This document shows positions 44,140-53,713 of a DNA stretch of 53,716 nt, piece after piece; positions within the stretch are counted from its first letter, which is position 1; each line of letters begins with the position of its first letter. The position numbers were made by a program, and so were the translations under genes. Source of the stretch: Minisyncoccia bacterium (GTDB taxonomy: Bacteria; Patescibacteriota; Minisyncoccia; Phycocordibacterales; UBA9973); assembly GCA_044229265.1 (NCBI GenBank), contig JBGATK010000001.1:101776-155491 (forward strand), in the 5' to 3' direction. The notes under the pieces are model-generated. The model saw only the letters and a list, made by a program, of their open reading frames with translations, did no database searches and was not told where the DNA came from.

Positions 44140-47100
44140 TTAATGATGAAATGTGGTTGTAGTATGACCAGTGTTTGTATTAGTAGTAATAGTTTTTGCT
44201 GGGAAAATTCTGCCGTAGATTAGTCTTATTACTAATAATATAAGTAGTATTAAGAGTAGTAAGATTAACCATCCGAACAAAGAGTCTGGCCAGAATCCTG
44301 CACCAAATAATGCATTACCAGTAAGATTCACTCCGCGATTATCCTCGATGTTGTTTTTTGAATAAGCGAATACTTCTTCTTGAGATCCGTCTTCATTTAT
44401 AGTGTAAGCTATGTTTGCAGTTATTACTGTAATTTTACCAATTTCTGCATTTCTGGTTACTAGAGCACTTACTCGTACACTGCCTTCTTCACCAGGGAAT
44501 AGGGAACCTATATTTACTACTACATTGTTATTCTCTTCAGACCAGTATCCTCGTGAAGAAGATATGAATGAGAGTTCTTTTGGCAGAGCTACACGTAAAA
44601 CTACATCACGTAAATCTTTTGTGGATACGTTTTTGTAGTAAATATTGTAAGTAATCTCTTCTCCTATATTTATCACTTCTCCGTTTTTGTCTATTGTTAA
44701 GAATACAAGTGAAGGTTTGGAAAGCCCAACGCCAGTGTTTGTATTAGTTACAACTGTTCTTGTTGTGTTTATGACACGAGTAGTATTATTGTTATTTATA
44801 ATCAAATTATTTGTACGGAATGTTTGTATGTCTCCACGAGAAACTCCGTATTGAGTAGATACAACTGCACGGTAATAGTAGATAGTATTAGGAGCTAAAG
44901 AATAAATACTTGCATTGAATGAGTTAGAATTTATGCTTCCGATTACAGTGGAAATTGTAGTTTGTCCCAAGTTTTGTGATAAGCCATATTCAAAGTATCC
45001 TGTCATGGTTACATTTGTATCTTGAACACCTAGACCATTTAATCTAGCAGAGTTAGTTCCAGTATTTGTAGCAATTGTAGTTATCGCTTGAGGAGCGCAA
45101 TTTCCATAAGTAGAACAATTATTGTAATAGTTTTGAGTTGTAGTAGTAAAGCTCATTACATTACCATAAGCTGTGCCATTATTGTTTTGAGCTACTGCAC
45201 GGAAATAATAAGTTGTATTTGGAGAAAGAGCACTTATTCTTTCAGAGAAGTTTCCGTAATTTCCAGCTTGACTGTAATGATTTGTTGAATTGTATAAAGC
45301 TCCATAATTGGTGCCATATTCAAACCAACGAGTAGTATTAGAGCCATTGTTATTATCTACATAACCATTTAGAGTTGCAGAATTTTCACGAATGTCTGTA
45401 GCAGAATAAGTAGTTACACTTGGGCGATCGTAGTTGTTTCCACCGCAATTATATGTACATCCGCCACCATTACTATTTGTTCGGAAAGTTCTTACTTGAC
45501 CATAAACTGTATCACCATTTTCATTTTCTGCGATTGCTTGAAATGAATATGAAGTATTTTCTTGTAAGCCTGTTAAATAATAGCTTAGAGTTGCATTACT
45601 ATTGTAAGTATTAAGCGCAGTTAGATTTGTAAGATTAGAGCCTACACCCCATACGAATCCACTTACAACATCAGTATTACCATTTACATTTAAGTACCCA
45701 TTAAGTGTAGCAGAGTTTGCGGAAATATTTGTAGCACTATTTGTTTCTACAGTAGGGTCTTGGTTGGATTGATTGTCAACATAGATACTTATAGTATCAG
45801 TTGCTGAGCCAGAATTATTTGTACAAGTTAGAGTGTAAGTTTTTGTGCCAGATGAAAGTGAGCCAGTGTAAAATGATCCACCTGAAGTATTTTTGTTTCC
45901 AGACCAATTATTTGTGCCACCTGATGCAGTGCATGATGTAGCATTGGATACTGACCAGCGTAAATATGTGCCTTGTCCATAAGAAAGACTTGTTTGGTCT
46001 GCTGTAAGATTTACAGTTGGTTTTTGAACTGGTTGTGCGTCTACGGCTACAGTTACAGAATCTTCAACTTGACCGTATGAGTTATAACAAATTATTTTAT
46101 AAGTTGCATTTTGAGTCATTTGTCCAGAGAAGAATGATCCACCATTTATAGCTTTTGAACCAGCCCAGCCATTTGCTCCACCGTATGCTTGGCAGGCTGT
46201 AGCATTTGTCGGATACCATCTGATATAAGTAGTGCCGTTGTAAGGTAAGAAAATTTGATCTGCAGAAATAGTTACAGAAGGAAGGGGATTCTGATTTGGA
46301 CCACTGACTACATTTACTGTTACAGAATCAGTTGCTGATCCAGTAGCGTTTGTACAGGTAATAGTATAGATAGTTGTAGCGTAAAGAGAACTTACAAAGA
46401 AGCTACCACCATTTGGGTTTTTTACACCTGCCCAGCCAGTAGATCCACCTGATGCATTACATGATGTAGCATTTGTAGTATTCCACATTATATTTGTCGC
46501 AGAACCAGTAGATAAGCTAGATGGACTCGCTGAAATATTTACAGTTGGATTTTGAACTGGAGGATTGTAGGGTTGAACATTGACTGTAGCGTAGCCAGTA
46601 GCAGATTGACCTGTAGCGCTATAACAAGTTATTGAATATGTTGTAGTTGTAGTTGGATATACATTTATAGAACCTGAAGTTGAACTTGCTCCCCAATTAG
46701 AAGAACAATAAGTCGCATTTGTAGAATTCCAAGAAAGATTTGATAGGTTTCCAGAATTTATACTAGAAGGGTTTGCTGTAAGATTTACAGTTGGATTTTG
46801 TTGTGGGGGATTGTTTGTTTGCACATTTACAGTTGTACTCATAGGAGTAGAGCCATACATGTTTGTACATGTGATAGTATAAGTAGTCGTAGAAGTGAGT
46901 GAAGATGCATTAAAGCTACCAGAAGTTGCTTTATTGCCATACCAACCAAGAGAACCACCACTAGCATAACAAGTAGATGCACCAGTCGAGTTCCAAGTAA
47001 TAGTACTTGAACCATTGTAATTTACCCAAGTTGGACTAGCTGAAATACTTACAGTTGGAGCATTTTGATTTCCACCGCCACCACCACCACCGTTACCATT

Positions 47101-47421
47101 TACGACTACTGTTACAGACTTGGTCATAGAACCATAGCTGTTTGTACAAGTAAGTACATATGTAGTAGTTGCAGTTAGGGGAGTAGTGTAAAGAGCTCCA
47201 CCATTGGTAGATTTTGCACCAGACCAACCAAGAGATCCCATAGATCCTTGGCAAGCTGTAGCACCAGTCACCGTGTACGAAATAGTAGTGGTGCCATTGT
47301 AAGCAACACTAGTTGGACTAGCACTTATTGTAATATATGGAGCATTTTGCGCTGAAGCAAAAGGTACGCCAAAAGCCAAAGTGGCCAAGAAAACAAAACT
47401 AAAAATTAAATATTTTTTCAT
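44140..47421 (-). CDS. giant cell-surface repeat protein with C-terminal membrane anchor
   Basis: Signal peptide (MKKYLIFSFVFLATLAFGVPFASA from ATG 47421), about nine ~95-aa two-cysteine Ig-like modules, three or four FN3-like modules, a DUF11-like segment, and a final TM helix (LFGWLILLLLILLILLVI). Confidence 0.8.
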   Translation of the reverse strand: MKKYLIFSFVFLATLAFGVPFASAQNAPYITISASPTSVAYNGTTTISYTVTGATACQGSMGSLGWSGAKSTNGGALYTTPLTATTTYVLTCTNSYGSMTKSVTVVVNGNGGGGGGGNQNAPTVSISASPTWVNYNGSSTITWNSTGASTCYASGGSLGWYGNKATSGSFNASSLTSTTTYTITCTNMYGSTPMSTTVNVQTNNPPQQNPTVNLTANPSSINSGNLSNLSWNSTNATYCSSNWGASSTSGSINVYPTTTTTYSITCYSATGQSATGYATVNVQPYNPPVQNPTVNISASPSSLSTGSATNIMWNTTNATSCNASGGSTGWAGVKNPNGGSFFVSSLYATTIYTITCTNATGSATDSVTVNVVSGPNQNPLPSVTISADQIFLPYNGTTYIRWYPTNATACQAYGGANGWAGSKAINGGSFFSGQMTQNATYKIICYNSYGQVEDSVTVAVDAQPVQKPTVNLTADQTSLSYGQGTYLRWSVSNATSCTASGGTNNWSGNKNTSGGSFYTGSLSSGTKTYTLTCTNNSGSATDTISIYVDNQSNQDPTVETNSATNISANSATLNGYLNVNGNTDVVSGFVWGVGSNLTNLTALNTYNSNATLSYYLTGLQENTSYSFQAIAENENGDTVYGQVRTFRTNSNGGGCTYNCGGNNYDRPSVTTYSATDIRENSATLNGYVDNNNGSNTTRWFEYGTNYGALYNSTNHYSQAGNYGNFSERISALSPNTTYYFRAVAQNNNGTAYGNVMSFTTTTQNYYNNCSTYGNCAPQAITTIATNTGTNSARLNGLGVQDTNVTMTGYFEYGLSQNLGQTTISTVIGSINSNSFNASIYSLAPNTIYYYRAVVSTQYGVSRGDIQTFRTNNLIINNNNTTRVINTTRTVVTNTNTGVGLSKPSLVFLTIDKNGEVINIGEEITYNIYYKNVSTKDLRDVVLRVALPKELSFISSSRGYWSEENNNVVVNIGSLFPGEEGSVRVSALVTRNAEIGKITVITANIAYTINEDGSQEEVFAYSKNNIEDNRGVNLTGNALFGAGFWPDSLFGWLILLLLILLILLVIRLIYGRIFPAKTITTNTNTGHTTTTFHH

Positions 47422-47615
47422 ATATTTTTTGATTAAAACCCACGCCAAAGGCGGGGTAAATTGCTAATAAACTTTGATTTATAAAGTTGAAATAGTAAAA
47501 CTCACTTCCACTTATTTCCCAGGGAGTATATCATTTTTTGTTAAAAAAGTCAAGACCTAGCTCAAAAATATAATATCTTAGATATTTATAGTGTATTTGG
47601 AATTTTTGCACAATG

Positions 47616-47687
47616 TGCTCTCGGCAGGAATCGAACCTGCATCATAACTTCCGCAAAGTTACGTCCTATCCATTGAACGACGAGAGC
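47616..47687 (-). tRNA. tRNA-Arg (anticodon GCG)
   Basis: Manual fold: acceptor GCTCTCG/CGAGAGC, D arm GTTC-AATGGATA-GGAC, anticodon stem TAACT/AGTTA with loop TTGCGGA, T arm GCAGG-TTCGATT-CCTGC. Confidence 0.85.
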
Positions 47688-47690
47688 ATG

Positions 47691-47930
47691 TTAATGTATT
47701 TTATTTTTTAAATATCTTCTACCTGCTGCACTTTTCCAATACCTTTCTTTTTTTACTGCCTCATCTCTTTCTTCACATATCTCATAATATATTATTTTAA
47801 AAGGAATGAAAGCTTTGTTCGATTTTGTTATACCCCTATTGTGTTGCTCTAAACGTATTTCCAAATTCTCACAAAACCCTTTGTAATAAAAGTCTGCAAC
47901 TGTGCTTTTTAATACATAAACATAATACAT
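47691..47930 (-). CDS. small GIY-YIG nuclease-family protein
   Basis: MYYVYVLKS...YKGFCENLEIRLEQHN fits the GIY-YIG pattern (Y-x-YVL ... Y-x-G). ATG 47930 is preferred because the upstream 18 codons of the track ORF read through a tRNA-derived repeat and hairpin. Confidence 0.78.
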   Translation of the reverse strand: MYYVYVLKSTVADFYYKGFCENLEIRLEQHNRGITKSNKAFIPFKIIYYEICEERDEAVKKERYWKSAAGRRYLKNKIH

Positions 47931-47935
47931 GTGTT

Positions 47936-47998
47936 GCGTCCTATCCCCGCCCGAACGACTGACATCGTTCAGTCGGGCGGGCATTGAACGACAAGAGC
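47936..47998 (-). pseudogene. partial duplicate of the tRNA-Arg 5' segment, split by a 35-nt G+C-rich hairpin
   Basis: 47937-47946 plus 47982-47998 match tRNA positions 1-27 (47661-47687) at 26 of 27 nt. The insert 47947-47981 folds into a stem of up to 9 bp (cccgcccga / tcgggcggg). Confidence 0.8.
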
Positions 47999-48037: not shown

Positions 48038-48508
48038 TTATATACCTAGGAACCTTACTATTTTGTCAGCAGTGTGCTCAGTAAATTTTCCTTCTTTTAC
48101 TTTATGTTCTGTAAAGATTTTTTTTATATTCTCCTCTTCGCCTATAGGAAAGGCCATTGAGATGAGAGGAAAGAGCATTCTTTCTGATCTGACTATTAAC
48201 ACTGGTCGGTCTTCGAGTATTGAAAACTCGCTAATGGTTTCGTATAAATATAAAGAATTTTTTATTTTTAATCCTTTGTCATTTAATTCGTAATTAAGCA
48301 TTTCTGGTTTTAAATTTACAGTTTTGCTTAGCATTATTCCGCCTAAAACTAAAATTCCAGCTAAAAAGTAATTTTTAAAAATTATTGCGATTACGCTTCC
48401 AGAGATTACAATAATAGCAAGAGCCCAAAACCAATCAGTTGTTTTTATGTCTTCTTTGTATTCTAAAGATTCCCATGAAATTATTGAGTTTGTATTCATG
48501 TAATACAA
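48038..48508 (-). CDS. membrane protein with two TM helices and a soluble C-terminal domain
   Basis: 156-aa ORF with hydrophobic helices at aa ~27-62. No motif recognised. Confidence 0.5.
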   Translation of the reverse strand: MYYMNTNSIISWESLEYKEDIKTTDWFWALAIIVISGSVIAIIFKNYFLAGILVLGGIMLSKTVNLKPEMLNYELNDKGLKIKNSLYLYETISEFSILEDRPVLIVRSERMLFPLISMAFPIGEEENIKKIFTEHKVKEGKFTEHTADKIVRFLGI

Positions 48509-48546: not shown

Positions 48547-48897
48547 TTACCAAGACACAACAATTATTGTAAATAAAAGTAAAATTGCTACAAAATAACT
48601 AGTTTGTTTATTTTTTATTTTTTCTTTTGTGTGTTTTACAAATAAATCTCCGGAAATTCCAATGAGTCCGAGGATGCTGGCTATTCCTAGGATTGGTATC
48701 AACCATTTATTTAAAGGGTTAGAAGGAAATTCCGAATAAAATAAAGTAAAGATAGCTAAAAAAATATAGAGTAAAATTATTATCTCACTTAATATTAAAG
48801 AAAATCCACTGATTCTGTGGAGTATTTTTCTGCCGTGCTTGTTTTTGAGCATAATCAGAATAGCAACAATTGATAGTATTATGTAGATGAAAATCAT
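48547..48897 (-). CDS. small four-helix membrane protein
   Basis: 116 aa, almost entirely hydrophobic helices. Confidence 0.5.
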   Translation of the reverse strand: MIFIYIILSIVAILIMLKNKHGRKILHRISGFSLILSEIIILLYIFLAIFTLFYSEFPSNPLNKWLIPILGIASILGLIGISGDLFVKHTKEKIKNKQTSYFVAILLLFTIIVVSW

Positions 48898-49070
48898 GGG
48901 TCTGTCTTAAGGATGTCTATAATTTTTATTTTTTGTTATATCTGACTATAATTTATGTCAGGTTTTCTGCGGTGTGTATTGGACGAAGTTCGAATGTATT
49001 TCGGACAAAATCCGCAGGATTTTGACGAATGATGCGGACTGCGCCTCGCACGCTCGCTCCGCTCGCGATC

Positions 49071-49174
49071 CCAAAACCAAAAATTTCCTTACAATTCCTC
49101 TTTCGGCGGGGGGTGTGGGGGGAGCCGGCAAAAAATGGAAAGGAAAATTTTTGGTTTTGGTTCCGACGCTTCAT
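49071..49174 (+). repeat. left copy of a ~100-nt palindromic element (G-run on the plus strand)
   Basis: Arms ccaaaaccaaaaatttcctt (49071-49090) and aaggaaaatttttggttttgg (49140-49160) flank ggggggtgtgggggg. The core 49117-49174 is the reverse complement of 53603-53660 at 57 of 58 nt. Confidence 0.9.
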
Positions 49175-49480
49175 TCCTCCAGAAAGGACTTGTATTTATA
49201 TTCTAGCATTGTGGCGATATTTTGTCCGTCCTTTCCTCCGTCATTCGCATCGGTGCGAGGCGCTCTCCGTATCCGCGTCTTGTGGTAGTTCTAGAGTCCG
49301 CTCACACTTCGTAACCACCTCGCATAGGCCGTTCGCATTCGCTCACGATGCCTACTCGGTGTTTGCTTCGTGTTTGCTCTGTGACTTCGTCCGAGCTTGT
49401 CGTAACTCTAAAAAGCGGATTGTGCTGAGGCACAAACAAGTTTATATATGTGCTTGCCCCACCCACCCAATGCGCGCACA

Positions 49481-49505
49481 GAAAACCACCCGCTAACGCG
49501 AGTGG
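49481..49505 (-). terminator. intrinsic terminator of the TM-TIR operon
   Basis: An 8-bp stem (ccacccgc / gcgagtgg, one mismatch), a 4-nt loop, and on the minus strand a following TTTT. It begins 6 nt after the TIR gene stop. Confidence 0.55.
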
Positions 49506-49510
49506 CTCCC

Positions 49511-50179
49511 TTACACCTCTTTTGCTATCTCAAAGTGATCAAGATTGCTTTGATGTTCAGCAACATGATCTAAATGACTATTTATATTCTCAATGAAATC
49601 ACTCCACTTGACTGGGTGAATGTATGAATGATCACCGCCTGTATGGTGTGTTCCTCCACAAGTTGAACAACGAATCAAATTCTTATTATTTCTATTAAAC
49701 ATATTATCACCAAGAATCTTGAAGAGTGAACCAGTATTCCAACTGGTAACACAATTATAGTGATTAACGATATATGAGTAACTACCATTTTCGTCTGGCA
49801 GTGCGACTGCCAACATAGCATTGGTTCCACTCGTTCTGCCATCTCTGGTTATTTCTTTAAGAGAATATGAAATTTCCCATGGAATCCATTGATCATCTTC
49901 GGGCGTTAAAGGATCTCTCATTCCTTTAGAAATCAAAACTATCGTGGTCGAACTATCCCAAATTTTGTCTCTTAAATTTGATGCAATTGTCTCATCCTTG
50001 AAGTTACTCATATCTTCTCCGTCATCCTCACCTTTGTTTATATGATCATTTACATCTAAAAGTGCTTGCAAGGCATCAACATAATGTCGTGCAGTTGTCG
50101 TGTTTAACAAACCAACATTTTGCAATCTTTGTACTTGTGAATCACCGTATTTATAGCTAATAAAAATCTTTCTTGCCAT
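49511..50179 (-). CDS. ThsB-like TIR-domain protein (DUF1863-type)
   Basis: RKIFISYKYGD start, TTIVLIS strand, and WIPWEISYS with a candidate catalytic Glu102. This layout parallels Bacillus ThsB (KRVFFSFHYQD ... RWVRYEI). The C-terminal part carries C-x2-C and a His cluster. Confidence 0.78.
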   Translation of the reverse strand: MARKIFISYKYGDSQVQRLQNVGLLNTTTARHYVDALQALLDVNDHINKGEDDGEDMSNFKDETIASNLRDKIWDSSTTIVLISKGMRDPLTPEDDQWIPWEISYSLKEITRDGRTSGTNAMLAVALPDENGSYSYIVNHYNCVTSWNTGSLFKILGDNMFNRNNKNLIRCSTCGGTHHTGGDHSYIHPVKWSDFIENINSHLDHVAEHQSNLDHFEIAKEV

Positions 50180-50183
50180 ATAT

Positions 50184-50573
50184 TTATAGTATTAAAATAA
50201 TAATATGAACTGCTAATAGTCCACCATAAAATGCGACTAAGGTTCCAGAAGTAGCACAACTAAACCAATTACCGCCATCATTACACGCTTTAGTTTTCAT
50301 TAAAAAATCAATCTCATTTTCAGATTTTTCTGCTGTGCGTTCGTAAAGCTCTCGAAATCTTTTTTCTTGGTCGAGATAGTATCCATCAAGTAACCAGAAG
50401 AGAGTCAAAATTAAAAAAGAGATTAAGACAAAACGGCAATCGAGTTCTTTGAAACTAAATGCGAGTAATGCACCAACAACGGTTATAGCCCATCCTTTTA
50501 AAAGGAAAGAGTTATTTGCCATTCTGTTAATGGCTGTTTGTATAAATTCAAGATGTTTTAATTTTGCTTCCAT
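50184..50573 (-). CDS. 129-aa three-TM membrane protein, candidate effector partner of the TIR protein
   Basis: N-terminal amphipathic helix (LEFIQTAINRMANNSFLLKGW), then helices AITVVGALLAFSF, FVLISFLILTLFWLL and LVAFYGGLLAVHIIILIL. It ends 4 nt before the TIR gene start. Confidence 0.65.
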   Translation of the reverse strand: MEAKLKHLEFIQTAINRMANNSFLLKGWAITVVGALLAFSFKELDCRFVLISFLILTLFWLLDGYYLDQEKRFRELYERTAEKSENEIDFLMKTKACNDGGNWFSCATSGTLVAFYGGLLAVHIIILIL

Positions 50574-50596
50574 AATTTCTGTGGATAATCTATGCT

Positions 50597-50625
50597 TTGC
50601 TTTTCGGCTTTTATTCGGTTATACT
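50597..50625 (+). promoter_or_regulatory. promoter of the LexA-methyltransferase gene in the divergent control region
   Basis: TTGCTT (50597-50602), a 17-nt spacer, then TATACT (50620-50625). This leaves a ~27-nt leader, unlike the leaderless core genes. Confidence 0.5.
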
Positions 50626-50658
50626 AAAATTGTAGCGCAAATAGATTTTTAAAGCAAT

Positions 50659-52239
50659 ATGTCAAACCTTACGAAAAAGCAAAAAGAAGTCTTTGACTTT
50701 ATAAACTCCTACTTATCAGAGAATGGTATCGCTCCAACCATCGAGGAAATACGAAAAAAGCTGAAATTAAAGGCGGTTTCCACTGTTCATGAGCATATCA
50801 ATTCCCTGAGAGAAAAAGGGTATCTTTCAAAATCAGATAATTCAGCAAGAAACCTAACGCCTAAGAAAGAAATTAAATCCGTTATTGAGATTCCTATACT
50901 CGGAAGTATTAAAGCGGGATATCCGTTGCCAGCAATAGAAGAGAGAGACGGTTTTGTTTCTGTTATAAATCCACAAATCAAAACTGCAAACGGACACTAC
51001 GCTCTTCGTGTTGTTGGAGATTCAATGATTGATGACGGCATATTTGACGGAGACATTGTTGTTATTAAACATCAATCAGTTGCAGAAAATGGACAAACTG
51101 TTGTCGCGATAATTGATGACAACGAAGCAACTTTAAAAAGGTTATATAGAAAAGGAAAAGGTTTTGAACTTGTTCCAAGAAATCCTAATATGCCAACCTT
51201 GTTCAGAACTGATGTTGAAGTTAGGGGTGTTGTTGTTCAAGTAATAAGCAATCCTACAAATGAACCGACACAGGAAATTAAAAAGAACAAGACAAAACAT
51301 GGATTTAGGACAATAGATCTTTTTGCCGGTGTTGGTGGTATTCGCATAGGTTTTGAGAATGCAGGTTTTAAGACTGTTTTTGCTAATGACTTTGAGGCTT
51401 TGTGTCGTGATACTTATGATTTGAATTTTCGTGATTCAAAGTTAGTTGTTGAAGATATTAGAAAAATAGGAATTGACGATCTTCCTGAATTTGATTTTCT
51501 TTTAGGAGGCTTTCCGTGCCAAGCGTTTTCAATCGCTGGTTATAGACAAGGATTTAATGATGAGAAAGGAAGAGGAAATCTGTTTTTTGATGTCGCACGA
51601 ATTATAGACAAAAGAAAACCGGAAGGTTTTTTGCTAGAAAATGTAAAAAATTTAAAAAGTCACGATGGCGGAAAAACCTTCAGAATTATTGAAGAAACAT
51701 TGAGAGATCTTGGATACCATGTAAAGACAAAAGTTTTAAACACAATGGAGTATGGCAATGTTCCGCAAAATCGTGAGCGTATTTATATTGTCGGGTTCAG
51801 AAATAAGCTTTACCATGACAGATTTGAGTTTCCAACACCAGTAAAATTAAATGTAAAAATCACAGATTTACTTGAGGAAAATGTGCCTGAAAAATACTAT
51901 TACAATGGGAAGCCTTTGTTCGAAAAATTAAAGGGTTCAGTAAAAGAATATGGGAAAGTTTATCAATGGCGCAGACAATATGTTCGTGAGAATAAAAGTG
52001 GCGTCTGTCCGACATTAACGGCAAATATGGGAATGGGTGGACACAATGTTCCAATTATTAAAGATAAAAAAGGTATAAGAAAATTAACTCCTTTAGAGTG
52101 TTTTAGAATTCAAGGCTTTCCCAAAAATTACAAGCTTCCAAAAATTTCTGATTCTGCACTATACAAACAAGCAGGTAACTCGGTGAGTGTTCCTGTTATT
52201 GAAGCGGTTGCAAAGGAAATGATGAAAGCAATGCAATAA
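50659..52239 (+). CDS. fusion protein: full LexA-type repressor (wHTH + S24 peptidase) joined to a C5 DNA cytosine methyltransferase
   Basis: LexA part: wHTH APTIEEIRKKLKLKAVSTVHEHINSLREKGYL, cleavage site Ala86-Gly87 (GSIKAGYPL), Ser122 (VVGDSM), Lys160 (ATLKRL). MTase part: motif I DLFAGVGG, IV GGFPCQAFS, VI ENVKNL, VIII QNRERIYIVG, IX RKLTPLECFRIQGFP, X GNSVSVPV. One ORF with no internal stop. Confidence 0.85.
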   Translation: MSNLTKKQKEVFDFINSYLSENGIAPTIEEIRKKLKLKAVSTVHEHINSLREKGYLSKSDNSARNLTPKKEIKSVIEIPILGSIKAGYPLPAIEERDGFVSVINPQIKTANGHYALRVVGDSMIDDGIFDGDIVVIKHQSVAENGQTVVAIIDDNEATLKRLYRKGKGFELVPRNPNMPTLFRTDVEVRGVVVQVISNPTNEPTQEIKKNKTKHGFRTIDLFAGVGGIRIGFENAGFKTVFANDFEALCRDTYDLNFRDSKLVVEDIRKIGIDDLPEFDFLLGGFPCQAFSIAGYRQGFNDEKGRGNLFFDVARIIDKRKPEGFLLENVKNLKSHDGGKTFRIIEETLRDLGYHVKTKVLNTMEYGNVPQNRERIYIVGFRNKLYHDRFEFPTPVKLNVKITDLLEENVPEKYYYNGKPLFEKLKGSVKEYGKVYQWRRQYVRENKSGVCPTLTANMGMGGHNVPIIKDKKGIRKLTPLECFRIQGFPKNYKLPKISDSALYKQAGNSVSVPVIEAVAKEMMKAMQ

Positions 52240-53322
52240 CTATTTTATGTATTGCTTTATAGACTCCAACATGACGTCCTCTTTACTAGGTATTCTATCG
52301 ATAACGGACTTATGCATAAAATACTCCTCACCATTATTTGAAGAACGATCTAATAGTTGGAACTTAATAATATAGGTTTTATTTGCTTCCAGAACCACAT
52401 TATTTATAGTGGCTCTACCTGTTGTTGTTATGGTAATAGAGCTTTTACTATTTTTTACAAAATGAATATTTTGAATGTCGTCAATATAAACATCTAGTAT
52501 TTTGTGTTTGTTATTTTTGTCTAACAAATTATTATTCCAACTGTATAAATTGTTACTATTTTTTGTTAGATAATTAGATAAGGGTGTTGTAACTGTGGTG
52601 GTTCTTGCAGTTCTAGTTTCATTTACTTCTTTTACATAAATTGGACTTTCATTTGAGGAGCAAAGAGTTGAAAAAGACATAAAATCTTTTGCTGAACAAA
52701 CTGTTATGAGTTTTAGTGAGCCTAAATCCGTATTCTTTCTATTAATTTTTGTAACGGAAGATAAGTCATTGTTAGCATTAGATTTTATAAAAATACTATC
52801 GTCCATTTTAAGTTTGTTATAAACATCTTCACTGAAGACTGTTTGTTCAAAAAAAGGCAATAAGTAATCGCTATCAAGATTTGTTTCAACCATGACAAGA
52901 TATTTATTGTCGTATCCTTGGTTCCTTAAACTAACCATGTACTGCGCTTTTTTGAAGGATTTTACCTCAATTTGCGGTGCATTATTCAATGCTTGCCATT
53001 TATTTACATATTCAACAAAGGGCTTAGCATCTTGACCAGCTCTTATACCAAGTACATCAGGGGCTATGCCTGATTTCTTTGGGTCATACTCATAATAGTC
53101 AGAAATGACAGATAGATTATTTGCTATTTTGGGCAAAAAATATTTGTTGAAAATTACACTTTCGGGAATTATATTTATCCAACGATCAAAAACCCCTCCA
53201 ATATAATCACTTTTTCCACTAAGACCCCCATACATCCTACCTCGTTGAGCCATTGAGCACACAAAATAGATGTACGGAACAACATCTTGCTTAGTAATTA
53301 TAATTTCGTGGTTATGATTCAT
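52240..53322 (-). CDS. putative type II restriction endonuclease (PD-ExK)
   Basis: APDVLGI ... QIEVKSFK gives a PD-(x)n-E-x-K arrangement. The gene is convergent and abutting the methyltransferase gene (the stops are adjacent), and is preceded by a C-protein gene with a 1-nt gap. Confidence 0.6.
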   Translation of the reverse strand: MNHNHEIIITKQDVVPYIYFVCSMAQRGRMYGGLSGKSDYIGGVFDRWINIIPESVIFNKYFLPKIANNLSVISDYYEYDPKKSGIAPDVLGIRAGQDAKPFVEYVNKWQALNNAPQIEVKSFKKAQYMVSLRNQGYDNKYLVMVETNLDSDYLLPFFEQTVFSEDVYNKLKMDDSIFIKSNANNDLSSVTKINRKNTDLGSLKLITVCSAKDFMSFSTLCSSNESPIYVKEVNETRTARTTTVTTPLSNYLTKNSNNLYSWNNNLLDKNNKHKILDVYIDDIQNIHFVKNSKSSITITTTGRATINNVVLEANKTYIIKFQLLDRSSNNGEEYFMHKSVIDRIPSKEDVMLESIKQYIK

Positions 53323-53323
53323 G

Positions 53324-53545
53324 TTATTTCACGAAAAAATCCAAGGATTTTTTATAAAGTTTCGCAAACTCTTTGAGTTGCAAAACATCAAAGCGCCGTT
53401 GTCCCGATTCAATCTTTGAGACATACGACTGAGTTCTACCAAGTTTCTCAGCAACTTCAACCTGCCCAAGACCAACCTCAAGACGCGCTTGTTTCAAGCG
53501 CTCAACGATCTTTTTGTGGTCATTTTGGTAAATTGCTCTCGGCAT
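53324..53545 (-). CDS. XRE-type HTH controller (C) protein
   Basis: From ATG 53545: a 73-aa protein with LGLGQVEVAEKLGRTQSYVSKIESGQR (HTH_3/XRE pattern), immediately upstream of the endonuclease gene. The track's longer ORF reads through the poly-C tract and the repeat, and I reject it. Confidence 0.75.
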   Translation of the reverse strand: MPRAIYQNDHKKIVERLKQARLEVGLGQVEVAEKLGRTQSYVSKIESGQRRFDVLQLKEFAKLYKKSLDFFVK

Positions 53546-53602
53546 ATATTTATATGATAATATTCCATTGTGTATTATTCCAAATTGCCATATAATGTAT
53601 TT

Positions 53603-53713
53603 ATGAAGCGTCGGAACCAAAACCAAAAATTTTCCTTTCCTTTTTTTGCCGGCTCCCCCCCCCCCCCCCCCCCCCCACAATGACACGTAAAGAAAATTTG
53701 TTTTTTTGTTTGG
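53603..53713 (-). repeat. right copy of the palindromic element (C-run on the plus strand), inverted relative to the left copy
   Basis: The core 53603-53660 is the reverse complement of 49117-49174 (57/58). Arms at 53617-53638 and 53689-53713 pair with each other across the poly-C tract. Confidence 0.9.
53655..53676. repeat. 22-nt homopolymeric C tract
   Basis: Counted directly. The left copy has GGGGGGTGTGGGGGG at the equivalent position. Confidence 0.95.

What the first reader, a model, noticed from the sequence alone, without database searches (positions are those of the whole stretch)
49511..50573. ThsB-like TIR protein co-transcribed with a bare 3-TM protein: a Thoeris-like pair with no known ThsA
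Two minus-strand genes sit 4 nt apart, with their own terminator and a divergent control region. The 222-aa product has the DUF1863/ThsB-type TIR layout: KIFISYKYGD start, TTIVLIS strand, and WIPWEIS with Glu102 at the position of the catalytic Glu. The 129-aa partner is only an amphipathic N-terminal helix plus three hydrophobic helices. Known Thoeris effectors (ThsA) contain SIR2-SLOG or TM+Macro ligand-sensing domains, and no SIR2, SLOG, Macro, nuclease or NADase-like gene is present in the island. The pair therefore looks like a TIR signal generator (or NAD-consuming TIR) coupled to a minimal membrane effector. That would be analogous to the TM effectors of CBASS/Pycsar, but in a TIR context. 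It lies next to an R-M system, as expected for a defence island.
Basis: partly seen in the sequence, partly recalled or inferred. Interest (0 to 1): 0.85.

Follow-up and report, generated by a model that had tools for sequence, protein, structure and literature searches.

The report
Type V Thoeris anti-phage gene pair
The two genes are a real TIR-plus-small-membrane-protein anti-phage pair, but the membrane protein is a clear homologue of ThsF, the effector of the "type V Thoeris" system described in a December 2025 preprint, so this is an ordinary new member of a known kind.

Summary
Two minus-strand genes lie 4 nt apart: a 129-aa three-helix membrane protein (50184-50573) and a 222-aa ThsB-type TIR protein (49511-50179) with Glu102 at the catalytic position.

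The claim of an unknown effector does not hold. The 129-aa protein is 43% identical over its full length (E 2e-37) to the gene next to the experimentally verified type V Thoeris ThsB of B. thuringiensis DAR 81934. That gene is ThsF, described by Yirmiya et al. (bioRxiv, December 2025). Both proteins hit the same PADLOC profile, PDC-M50A, at about 1e-46 to 1e-48. The window's TIR clade is listed in that paper's Table S1 with a "DUF2270 - Type V" partner.

The pairing is strongly conserved: 72 of 80 species genomes have a TIR-domain gene abutting the ThsF homologue.

Most likely mechanism, by homology: ThsB senses phage and makes a cyclic ADP-ribose isomer, probably 3'cADPR. An oligomer of ThsF in the membrane is then triggered to breach the membrane, aborting the infection.

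The less ordinary part lies around the pair. In this ThsF subclade it travels with an R-M system and a LexA/S24-type self-cleaving repressor, here fused to a Dcm methylase. These share a conserved divergent control region. I did not find that link in the type V Thoeris preprint or in one literature search.

The parts
50184..50573 (-). thsF: 129-aa, three-helix membrane effector of type V Thoeris (PADLOC PDC-M50A family)
   Evidence: ORF. PADLOC PDLC04686 2.8e-46 over the full length. 43% identity, E 2e-37, to the gene next to the verified B. thuringiensis type V ThsB. Three hydrophobic peaks. AF2 model pLDDT 86.
49511..50179 (-). thsB: 222-aa TIR-domain sensor and signal synthase, with catalytic Glu102
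   Evidence: Pfam PF08937 29.8 bits, above the 21.2 cut-off. PADLOC ThsB PDLC00428 9.6e-77. PDB 9vyl 1.5e-62. E102 lies in an invariant column with B. cereus ThsB E85.
50180..50183 (-). 4-nt spacer between the thsF stop and the thsB start, consistent with co-transcription and translational coupling
   Evidence: Read from the sequence. The same 3-12 nt spacing is seen in related loci such as L011, L014, L015, L016 and L017.
49410..49435 (-). Terminator-like hairpin plus T-run downstream of thsB (weak)
   Evidence: 6-bp stem with 3 GC pairs, followed by TCCGCTTTTT. The region has 2 such sites against 1.1 expected by chance.
50574..50658 (.). Divergent intergenic control region between thsF and lexA-dcm. 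It contains TTATCCACA at 50580-50588 (-) and the AACCGAA..AGCCGAA direct repeat.
   Evidence: Conserved nearly base for base in L012, L014 and L015. TTATCC[A/C]C upstream of thsF occurs only in the 5 loci with a divergent lexA, plus the window; it is absent from the 75 others, against a background of 0.003 per 60 nt.
50659..52239 (+). Associated gene: LexA DNA-binding domain + S24 self-cleaving peptidase + C5 cytosine methyltransferase fusion (526 aa)
   Evidence: Pfam LexA_DNA_bind 1.2e-18, Peptidase_S24 2.5e-28, DNA_methylase 3.7e-91. 36% identity to E. coli LexA, with A86-G87, S122 and K160 aligned to A84-G85, S119 and K156.
52240..53322 (-). Associated gene: 360-aa putative restriction endonuclease (inferred from position only)
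   Evidence: No Pfam or PADLOC hit. Convergent with and abutting the methylase gene. Collinear with L012 at about 75% nt identity.
53324..53545 (-). Associated gene: small HTH_3 (XRE/C-protein-like) regulator. The likely start is Met48 of the 53324..53686 ORF.
   Evidence: Pfam HTH_3 6e-12. PADLOC HTH_VI, capH and Control_protein hits. The start was read from the sequence.
49105..49174 (+). Left arm of a 70-nt inverted repeat that brackets the whole island
   Evidence: 94% complementary to 53603-53672. Only two copies in the window, with 0 expected by chance.
53603..53672 (-). Right arm of the 70-nt inverted repeat, preceded by a poly-G run

Best explanation
The pair is a type V Thoeris anti-phage system, thsF followed by thsB in one operon.

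Shown here by homology: the 222-aa protein is a ThsB-type TIR enzyme with its catalytic Glu intact. The 129-aa protein belongs to the ThsF effector family.

Inferred from published work on homologues: on phage infection, ThsB converts NAD+ into a cyclic ADP-ribose isomer. This is most probably 3'cADPR, because this TIR clade also serves SIR2-SLOG type I systems and the verified B. thuringiensis type V system uses 3'cADPR. ThsF sits in the membrane as a ring-shaped homo-oligomer. It would bind the signal in positively charged pockets, likely formed by its conserved N-terminal helix and the cytoplasmic segment after TM2. It would then disrupt the membrane, stopping phage replication by killing or arresting the infected cell.

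In this lineage the operon is embedded in a mobile-looking block together with a type II R-M system. That system's methylase carries a LexA-like self-cleaving repressor domain.
For: 1. ThsF identity. The window protein is 43% identical over its full length (E 2e-37) to the 141-aa gene immediately downstream of the ThsB that is 100% identical to IMG 2624526259. That is the verified B. thuringiensis DAR 81934 system, and its effector carries the consecutive ID 2624526260. Both proteins hit PADLOC PDC-M50A model PDLC04686, at 2.8e-46 and 1.8e-48. Small partners of related ThsBs on Terribacillus and Ligilactobacillus plasmids hit the same family.

2. ThsB identity and catalytic Glu.

3. The same TIR clade is catalogued as type V. 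Cluster 2742576382 in Table S1 carries the label 'DUF2270 - Type V'.

4. Adjacency. Under a strict rule, 61 of 72 scoreable loci have an abutting same-strand TIR gene. Under a looser rule the count is 70 of 80. Two more loci have TIR-APAZ, giving 72 of 80. PADLOC ThsB models hit the neighbours. At least 10 loci pair ThsF with the window's own TIR clade.

5. Signal. A 50%-identical TIR sits next to a SIR2 gene on a B. cereus plasmid. PDB 9vyl is named 'cyclic ADP-D-ribose synthase TIR1'. B. dafuensis TIR1 and TIR2 both make the ThsA-activating isomer. [quoted passage not shown]

6. Effector anatomy. There are three TM segments, as reported for ThsF. The invariant residues, many of them charged, cluster in the N-terminal helix.
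Against: No experiment exists for this TIR clade paired with ThsF. The verified type V systems use other ThsB clades (PADLOC 00430, and cluster 2612357774).

In the preprint, one type V system (V. cholerae) gave no defence. Another (Bacillus sp. 1NLA3E) was not made toxic by 3'cADPR, so the signal may differ between variants.

The 129-aa protein does not reach Pfam's DUF2270 threshold (14.7 bits against 25). However, the verified B. thuringiensis ThsF does not reach it either.

The oligomeric channel is an AlphaFold3 prediction from the preprint, not a solved structure, and I could not model multimers. No PDB structure resembles the monomer.

The identity of 9vyl as B. dafuensis TIR1 rests on my recollection of the naming, not on a tool result.
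Confidence: 0.85

Rival explanations
1. The architecture is the same, but the signal is not 3'cADPR. ThsB would make another ADPR derivative, such as 2'cADPR, canonical cADPR, or an unknown molecule, to which this ThsF subclade is tuned.
For: In the preprint, 3'cADPR did not trigger toxicity in the Bacillus sp. 1NLA3E type V variant. Several TIRs there produced no identified molecule. ThsF pairs with at least six different TIR clades. The window ThsF is only 43% identical to the 3'cADPR-responsive one.
Against: The window's TIR clade also partners SIR2-type ThsA, as on B. cereus plasmid L004. It is close to the PDB 'TIR1' protein. Type I effectors respond to 3'cADPR.
Confidence: 0.3
2. The TIR protein is itself the killing effector, an NAD+-depleting NADase. 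The small membrane protein would then be an anchor, a regulator or an immunity factor rather than the signal-activated effector.
For: Many bacterial TIRs act as NADase effectors in CBASS, Pycsar, SPARTA and AVAST. ThsF-like genes also precede SPARTA TIR-APAZ genes in L029 and L090. In those systems the TIR is regarded as the NADase.
Against: Exogenous 3'cADPR is toxic to cells carrying the homologous B. thuringiensis system, and a signal sponge abolishes its defence. That places ThsF downstream of a diffusible signal. The window's TIR clade works as the signal producer in type I systems.
Confidence: 0.07
3. The pair has no defence role. It could be a holin-like or stress membrane protein plus a TIR-fold protein, sitting next to an R-M system by chance.
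For: There is no direct experiment on this locus. The 129-aa protein has no curated Pfam or NCBIfam family.
Against: There is full-length homology to a verified defence effector. The pairing with TIR genes is conserved across phyla. The pair repeatedly co-localises with R-M, HicAB, Gabija-like or OLD-type genes.
Confidence: 0.03

Closest known systems
Type V Thoeris (ThsB + ThsF, 'DUF2270' effector). Verified in B. thuringiensis DAR 81934 and Bacillus sp. 1NLA3E; Yirmiya et al., bioRxiv 10.64898/2025.12.03.692087.
   Same: It is a two-gene operon of a TIR protein and a 130-140-aa membrane protein with three helices. The effector is homologous over its full length (43% identity, E 2e-37) and hits the same PADLOC profile. 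The window's TIR clade is listed with this effector class in Table S1.
   Different: ThsB belongs to a different clade: PADLOC 00428 / cluster 2742576382, rather than 00430 / 2734579397 or 2612357774. The gene order is thsF then thsB, whereas the B. thuringiensis locus has thsB then thsF. The host is probably a Patescibacteria/CPR organism. The pair is embedded with a LexA-fused R-M system. It is untested experimentally.
PADLOC candidate system PDC-M50 (A = small membrane protein, B = TIR-like; PADLOC-DB v2.0.0, unpublished candidate)
   Same: The 129-aa protein matches all four PDC-M50A models (best 2.8e-46). 39 of the 109 neighbours of family members match PDC-M50B.
   Different: The window's TIR matches PDC-M50B only weakly (2.5e-4). 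Its best match is the generic ThsB model 00428, so it is a different A/B combination from the one PADLOC modelled.
Type I Thoeris (ThsB + SIR2-SLOG ThsA), e.g. B. cereus MSX-D12 and B. dafuensis TIR1/TIR2
   Same: The ThsB is of the same clade as TIRs found next to SIR2 genes: 50% identity to the B. cereus plasmid copy, and 1.5e-62 to PDB 9vyl 'TIR1'. The catalytic Glu is conserved. The signal is probably the same, 3'cADPR.
   Different: There is no SIR2-SLOG effector. Killing would be by membrane damage rather than NAD+ depletion.
Type II Thoeris (TM + Macro effector, His-ADPR), type VII Thoeris (SLATT effector, cADPR), and the TM effectors of CBASS and Pycsar
   Same: The logic is the same: a nucleotide-derived signal activates an oligomerising membrane effector, leading to abortive infection.
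   Different: There is no Macro or SLATT domain and no sequence similarity. ThsF has no separate globular sensor domain.

Membership tests
Type V Thoeris (ThsB + ThsF) | A TIR-domain ThsB with the catalytic Glu | tested here: met
   PF08937 29.8 bits, above 21.2. PADLOC ThsB 9.6e-77. E102 is invariant with B. cereus E85 and with the verified type V ThsBs.
Type V Thoeris (ThsB + ThsF) | An effector homologous to an experimentally verified ThsF | tested here: met
   43% identity over the full length, E 2e-37, to the gene adjacent to the verified B. thuringiensis DAR 81934 ThsB. Same PADLOC model, PDLC04686.
Type V Thoeris (ThsB + ThsF) | An effector with three membrane-spanning helices | tested here: met
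   Kyte-Doolittle peaks near residues 31, 55 and 118. AF2 helices 2-43, 46-82 and 110-128, pLDDT 86.
Type V Thoeris (ThsB + ThsF) | An effector annotated as Pfam PF10028 (DUF2270) | tested here: inconclusive
   The window protein scores 14.7 bits against a cut-off of 25. 15 of 30 family members give sub-threshold hits. The verified B. thuringiensis ThsF gives no PF10028 hit by hmmscan either, so the label in the preprint must rest on more sensitive profile methods.
Type V Thoeris (ThsB + ThsF) | The two genes form a conserved operon | tested here: met
   4-nt spacing in the window. A TIR-domain gene abuts ThsF in 72 of 80 species genomes.
Type V Thoeris (ThsB + ThsF) | Protects against phage; infection-dependent 3'cADPR; effector toxicity triggered by the signal | not testable with these tools
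   This needs wet-lab assays. It is known only for homologues.
Type V Thoeris (ThsB + ThsF) | A homo-oligomeric, channel-like ThsF assembly with positively charged inter-protomer pockets | not testable with these tools
   Only monomer prediction is available here. The heptamer is an AF3 model in the preprint.
Type I Thoeris | A SIR2-SLOG ThsA effector next to thsB | tested here: not met
   None of the six neighbouring proteins has a SIR2 or SLOG hit. The partner is the 129-aa membrane protein.
Type II Thoeris | An effector with TM helices plus a Macro domain | tested here: not met
   The 129-aa protein has no Macro hit in Pfam or PADLOC, and it is too short to hold one.
PADLOC PDC-M50 | Both the A (membrane) and the B (TIR-like) models are matched | tested here: inconclusive
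   A matches at 2.8e-46. B matches only at 2.5e-4, while ThsB model 00428 matches at 9.6e-77. PADLOC itself was not run.
SLATT / CBASS-type TM effectors | A SLATT or Cap-type TM effector domain | tested here: not met
   No such Pfam or PADLOC hit at E up to 1.

The most novel reading that the evidence does not exclude
In this ThsF subclade, a LexA-type self-cleaving repressor is a third, conserved component. It is either free-standing or fused to the R-M methylase. It would wire a type II R-M system and type V Thoeris into one regulated unit. The repressor would sit on the conserved divergent promoter region, which includes the TTATCC[A/C]CA element, and hold the toxic thsF-thsB operon down. 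RecA*/ssDNA signals arising during phage replication or restriction damage would trigger cleavage at A86-G87 and derepress the abortive-infection layer.

Related to this, ThsF-like genes placed in front of SPARTA (TIR-APAZ + short pAgo) operons suggest that ThsF may read TIR products outside Thoeris.
Probability: 0.25. Interest if true: 0.55.

Novelty: new member of a known kind. Interest (0 to 1): 0.22.

Why it matters
As a Thoeris system, this adds little. It is another instance of type V, in a clade pairing already listed in the discovery paper's table. It does show that the system is common in small-genome Patescibacteria: about 15 of the 80 best species hits.

Two side observations could matter more.

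1. A LexA/S24 module recurs next to thsF-thsB in several phyla, fused or unfused to swapped R-M methylases. This offers a testable case of transcriptional coupling between a first-line defence (R-M) and a second-line defence (abortive infection).
2. ThsF-like genes are attached to SPARTA operons. This hints that the NADase products of pAgo-associated TIRs might also act as signals.

Tried and rejected
- **Pfam and NCBIfam on the 129-aa protein.** Only sub-threshold DUF3278 and DUF2270 hits were found, with nothing in NCBIfam. This was not usable for assignment.
- **Structure searches for the ThsF family.** A PDB sequence-profile search found 0 hits at E up to 10. Foldseek of the confident monomer model against the PDB gave only generic helical hairpins, all with E above 1.
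- **Literature search for 'PDC-M50'.** No papers hold the term. 'PDC-x' systems are only described as unpublished PADLOC candidates.
- **Reaching a genuine ThsF through plasmid relatives of the B. thuringiensis ThsB.** The first two hits (B. cereus, Priestia) had no ThsF next to the TIR. The Terribacillus, Ligilactobacillus and Klebsiella hits did.
- **Sigma-70 promoter scan.** It found no promoter in the divergent region, and counts were not above chance.
- **GC-rich flank 48950-49510.** An Rfam search at permissive threshold found nothing credible. No copy exists in L012. An assembly artefact is rejected, because the stretch is 99% identical in two independent metagenome contigs.
- **Taxonomic naming of the window through protein clusters.** No names were returned.
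- **TIR-ThsF fusion proteins as Rosetta-stone evidence.** None were found in the top 150 representatives. The N-terminal domain of the fusions that do exist (P0296, P0373) could not be identified.
- **Search for a paper on PDB 9vyl.** None was found.

Full report
**1. The observation**

One is 222 aa (49511..50179) and the other 129 aa (50184..50573), with four bases between them.

The larger product passes Pfam's own threshold for ThsB_TIR (29.8 bits against 21.2). It matches a PADLOC ThsB model end to end at 9.6e-77. It has a close relative with a solved structure, PDB 9vyl, 'Putative cyclic ADP-D-ribose synthase TIR1' (E 1.5e-62, residues 1-221).

I aligned it with B. cereus MSX-D12 ThsB, two verified type V ThsBs and other clades. 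Only four columns are invariant, and one is Glu102, which aligns with the Glu of WVRYEI (E85 by my count). ThsB E85Q is the mutant used in Ofir et al..

The smaller product has three hydrophobic peaks. A confident AlphaFold2 model (pLDDT 86, pTM 0.72) shows a long N-terminal helix running into TM1, then TM2 with a cytoplasmic helical extension, a loop, and TM3.

A weak terminator-like hairpin follows thsB, but this is not clearly above chance. The 85-nt divergent intergenic region is real.

**2. What the small protein is**

Curated libraries are nearly silent on it: sub-threshold DUF3278 and DUF2270 in Pfam, and nothing in NCBIfam. PADLOC, in contrast, matches it over its full length to all four models of 'PDC-M50A' (best 2.8e-46). 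PDC-M50A is the membrane component of an unpublished PADLOC candidate system whose B component is TIR-like.

A literature search led to Yirmiya et al. (bioRxiv, December 2025). That work enlarges Thoeris to 29 putative types and verifies types V to XI.

Type V pairs ThsB with ThsF. The preprint describes ThsF as follows:
- It is a protein with three membrane-spanning helices, labelled DUF2270.
- AlphaFold3 models it as a homo-heptameric, channel-like ring with basic inter-protomer pockets.
- In the B. thuringiensis DAR 81934 system, ThsB makes 3'cADPR on infection.
- Exogenous 3'cADPR is toxic to cells carrying that system, and the Tad1 sponge blocks defence.

**3. Linking the window to the verified system**

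I took the B. thuringiensis ThsB sequence from Table S1 and found the identical protein, P0121. I then fetched its locus.

The gene directly downstream is 141 aa. The IMG IDs for the TIR and the effector are consecutive, so I take this gene to be the verified ThsF. The window's 129-aa protein aligns to it over the full length at 43% identity, E 2e-37. It hits the same PADLOC model at 1.8e-48.

This B. thuringiensis ThsF also gives no hmmscan hit to PF10028. The window protein's failure to reach the Pfam cut-off is therefore not evidence against membership.

Small genes next to relatives of that ThsB on Terribacillus, Ligilactobacillus and Klebsiella plasmids belong to the same family.

Table S1 also lists full-length homologues of the window's TIR (cluster 2742576382) with the label 'DUF2270 - Type V'. 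This exact pairing is thus already catalogued, though untested.

**4. Neighbourhood conservation**

The family is large. There are more than 820 clusters at 90% identity and 5,119 representatives at 50% identity. At least 528 species genomes across many phyla encode a member. Almost all members are stand-alone proteins of 125-145 aa.

Among the 80 best species loci:
- 61 of 72 scoreable loci have an abutting same-strand gene hit by a TIR seed.
- 70 of 80 do under a looser rule.
- Two more loci carry a TIR-APAZ gene, giving 72 of 80.
- The neighbours match many different PADLOC ThsB models. Often one TIR gene lies on each side of thsF.
- At least 10 loci use the window's own TIR clade.

The same arrangement appears in metagenome contigs and in a Rhizomicrobium genome. 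The identical ThsF, with the identical ThsB neighbour, occurs in three other samples.

**5. Mechanism**

- **Shown:** the homology and the conserved operon structure.
- **Inferred from homologues:** ThsB senses infection and makes a cADPR isomer. ThsF oligomers bind it and breach the membrane.

I favour 3'cADPR as the signal for three reasons.
- A 50%-identical TIR sits beside a SIR2 gene on a B. cereus plasmid.
- The closest solved structure is named as a cADPR synthase, 'TIR1'. B. dafuensis TIR1 and TIR2 both generate the ThsA-activating isomer.
- The B. thuringiensis ThsF responds to 3'cADPR.

The signal remains uncertain, because another type V variant did not respond to 3'cADPR.

ThsF's invariant residues are concentrated in the N-terminal helix (K6 H7 L8 E9 F10 Q12 R17 M18 A19 S22 F23 L25 K26 G27 W28), with further invariant positions after TM2 (D63, E70, L76). 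These are my candidates for the ligand pocket. This is an inference only.

**6. Surroundings**

The divergent neighbour (50659-52239) is a fusion of a LexA DNA-binding domain, an S24 peptidase and a C5 methylase. Its N-terminal half is 36% identical to E. coli LexA, and the Ala-Gly cleavage site and the Ser/Lys dyad all align. For this comparison I supplied the E. coli sequence from memory.

A 360-aa gene with no profile hit follows, presumably the endonuclease, and then a small HTH controller.

The block of thsB, thsF, lexA-dcm and the endonuclease gene is collinear at about 75% nucleotide identity with a Saccharibacteria MAG.

Among the 26 closest ThsF relatives, 10 loci have a LexA/S24 gene immediately next to thsF. 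They fall into three layouts:
- fused to a methylase and divergent (L012, L014, L015);
- free-standing and divergent (L011, L013);
- free-standing and directly upstream on the same strand (L017, L024, L025, L030, L036).

L001 has the fused, divergent layout as well, but with an N6/N4 methylase.

These loci come from Patescibacteria, Gammaproteobacteria, Desulfobulbaceae, Acidobacteriota and Lentisphaeria. Methylases of different classes, and different nucleases, accompany them.

The divergent spacer is conserved. A TTATCC[A/C]C element 11-16 nt before the thsF start occurs only in the divergent-lexA loci.

The preprint does not mention LexA, and my search found no paper on such a link. I regard LexA-type control of thsF-thsB as plausible but unproven.

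**7. Verdict**

This is a genuine defence pair, correctly spotted. However, it is a member of type V Thoeris rather than a new kind of TIR system. Its novelty is limited to the untested ThsB clade and ThsF combination, the likely Patescibacteria host, and the LexA/R-M embedding.

Noticed in passing
window 50659-52239 (+); also L012 1890-3530, L014 934-2511, L015 3343-4938, L001 4272-5684: There is a fusion of a complete LexA-like repressor to a DNA methyltransferase. The repressor part has the DNA-binding domain, the S24 peptidase, the Ala-Gly site and the Ser/Lys dyad. The methylase is C5 in the window and N6/N4 in L001. The fusion recurs in several Patescibacteria contigs, always divergent from thsF-thsB.
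   Followed up: partly
L011, L013, L017, L024, L025, L030, L036 (coordinates in notebook entry 4): Free-standing LexA/S24 genes sit directly next to thsF-thsB in five phyla, usually with an adjacent methylase. L017 has MutH-like nuclease, Dcm, LexA, ThsF and ThsB all on one strand. The recurring unit is R-M + LexA + type V Thoeris, with the R-M enzymes swapped between loci.
   Followed up: partly
window 50580-50588 (-), within the spacer 50574-50658: TTATCCACA, which looks like a DnaA-box consensus, lies 7 nt (6 intervening bases) before the thsF start codon. The TTATCC[A/C]C core starts 11-16 nt upstream of thsF in all five loci with a divergent lexA. It is absent from the 75 other loci. AACCGAA/AGCCGAA direct repeats lie just upstream of it.
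   Followed up: partly
window 49105-49174 (+) and 53603-53672 (-): A 70-nt inverted repeat, 94% complementary, brackets the whole island from thsB to the HTH gene. Poly-G runs lie at its outer ends. It has only two copies in the window. It could mark a mobile cassette. The window ends 44 nt beyond the right arm, so the right flank cannot be seen.
   Followed up: partly
window 48950-49510: A stretch of 50-54% GC lies in a context of about 33% GC, immediately downstream of thsB. It holds only implausible Arg/Cys-rich ORFs and has no Rfam match. It is 99% identical in two independent metagenome contigs (L091, L093) and is absent from the collinear L012. Its function is unknown.
   Followed up: partly
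L090 5001-8410 (Hymenobacter sp. HSC-4F20); L029 5001-6561 (Cytophagales MAG): A ThsF-like gene directly precedes a SPARTA operon. In L090 the TIR-APAZ gene matches PDB 8qlo_A at 2e-62 and the short pAgo matches 8ifk_B at 2e-147. The Thoeris preprint deliberately excluded TIR-pAgo contexts, so a ThsF-SPARTA combination may be undescribed.
   Followed up: partly
P0296 (362 aa), P0373 (378 aa), P0305 (351 aa): Rare fusion proteins carry a C-terminal ThsF module. In P0296 and P0373 it follows an unidentified soluble domain of about 230 aa. In P0305 it follows an extra TM domain. No TIR-ThsF fusions were seen among the top 150 representatives.
   Followed up: partly
L004 4037-5726 (B. cereus plasmid NZ_CP053657.2): A 50%-identical homologue of the window's ThsB lies next to a SIR2-family gene, which is a type I Thoeris context. 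The same plasmid region holds two further TIR genes, one of which is a 53%-identical relative of the verified type V ThsB.
   Followed up: partly
window 47615-47984 (-): A tRNA-Arg(GCG) gene is immediately followed by a 97-aa GIY-YIG nuclease-domain ORF. Next come two small membrane-protein ORFs with no family (48038-48508 and 48547-48897), just outside the left inverted-repeat arm.
   Followed up: no
window 44140-47448 (-): A 1102-aa secreted or anchored protein is made of many Thr/Asn-rich repeats of about 100 aa. It has a DUF11 domain and a C-terminal hydrophobic anchor. This is typical of the large surface proteins of Patescibacteria.
   Followed up: no
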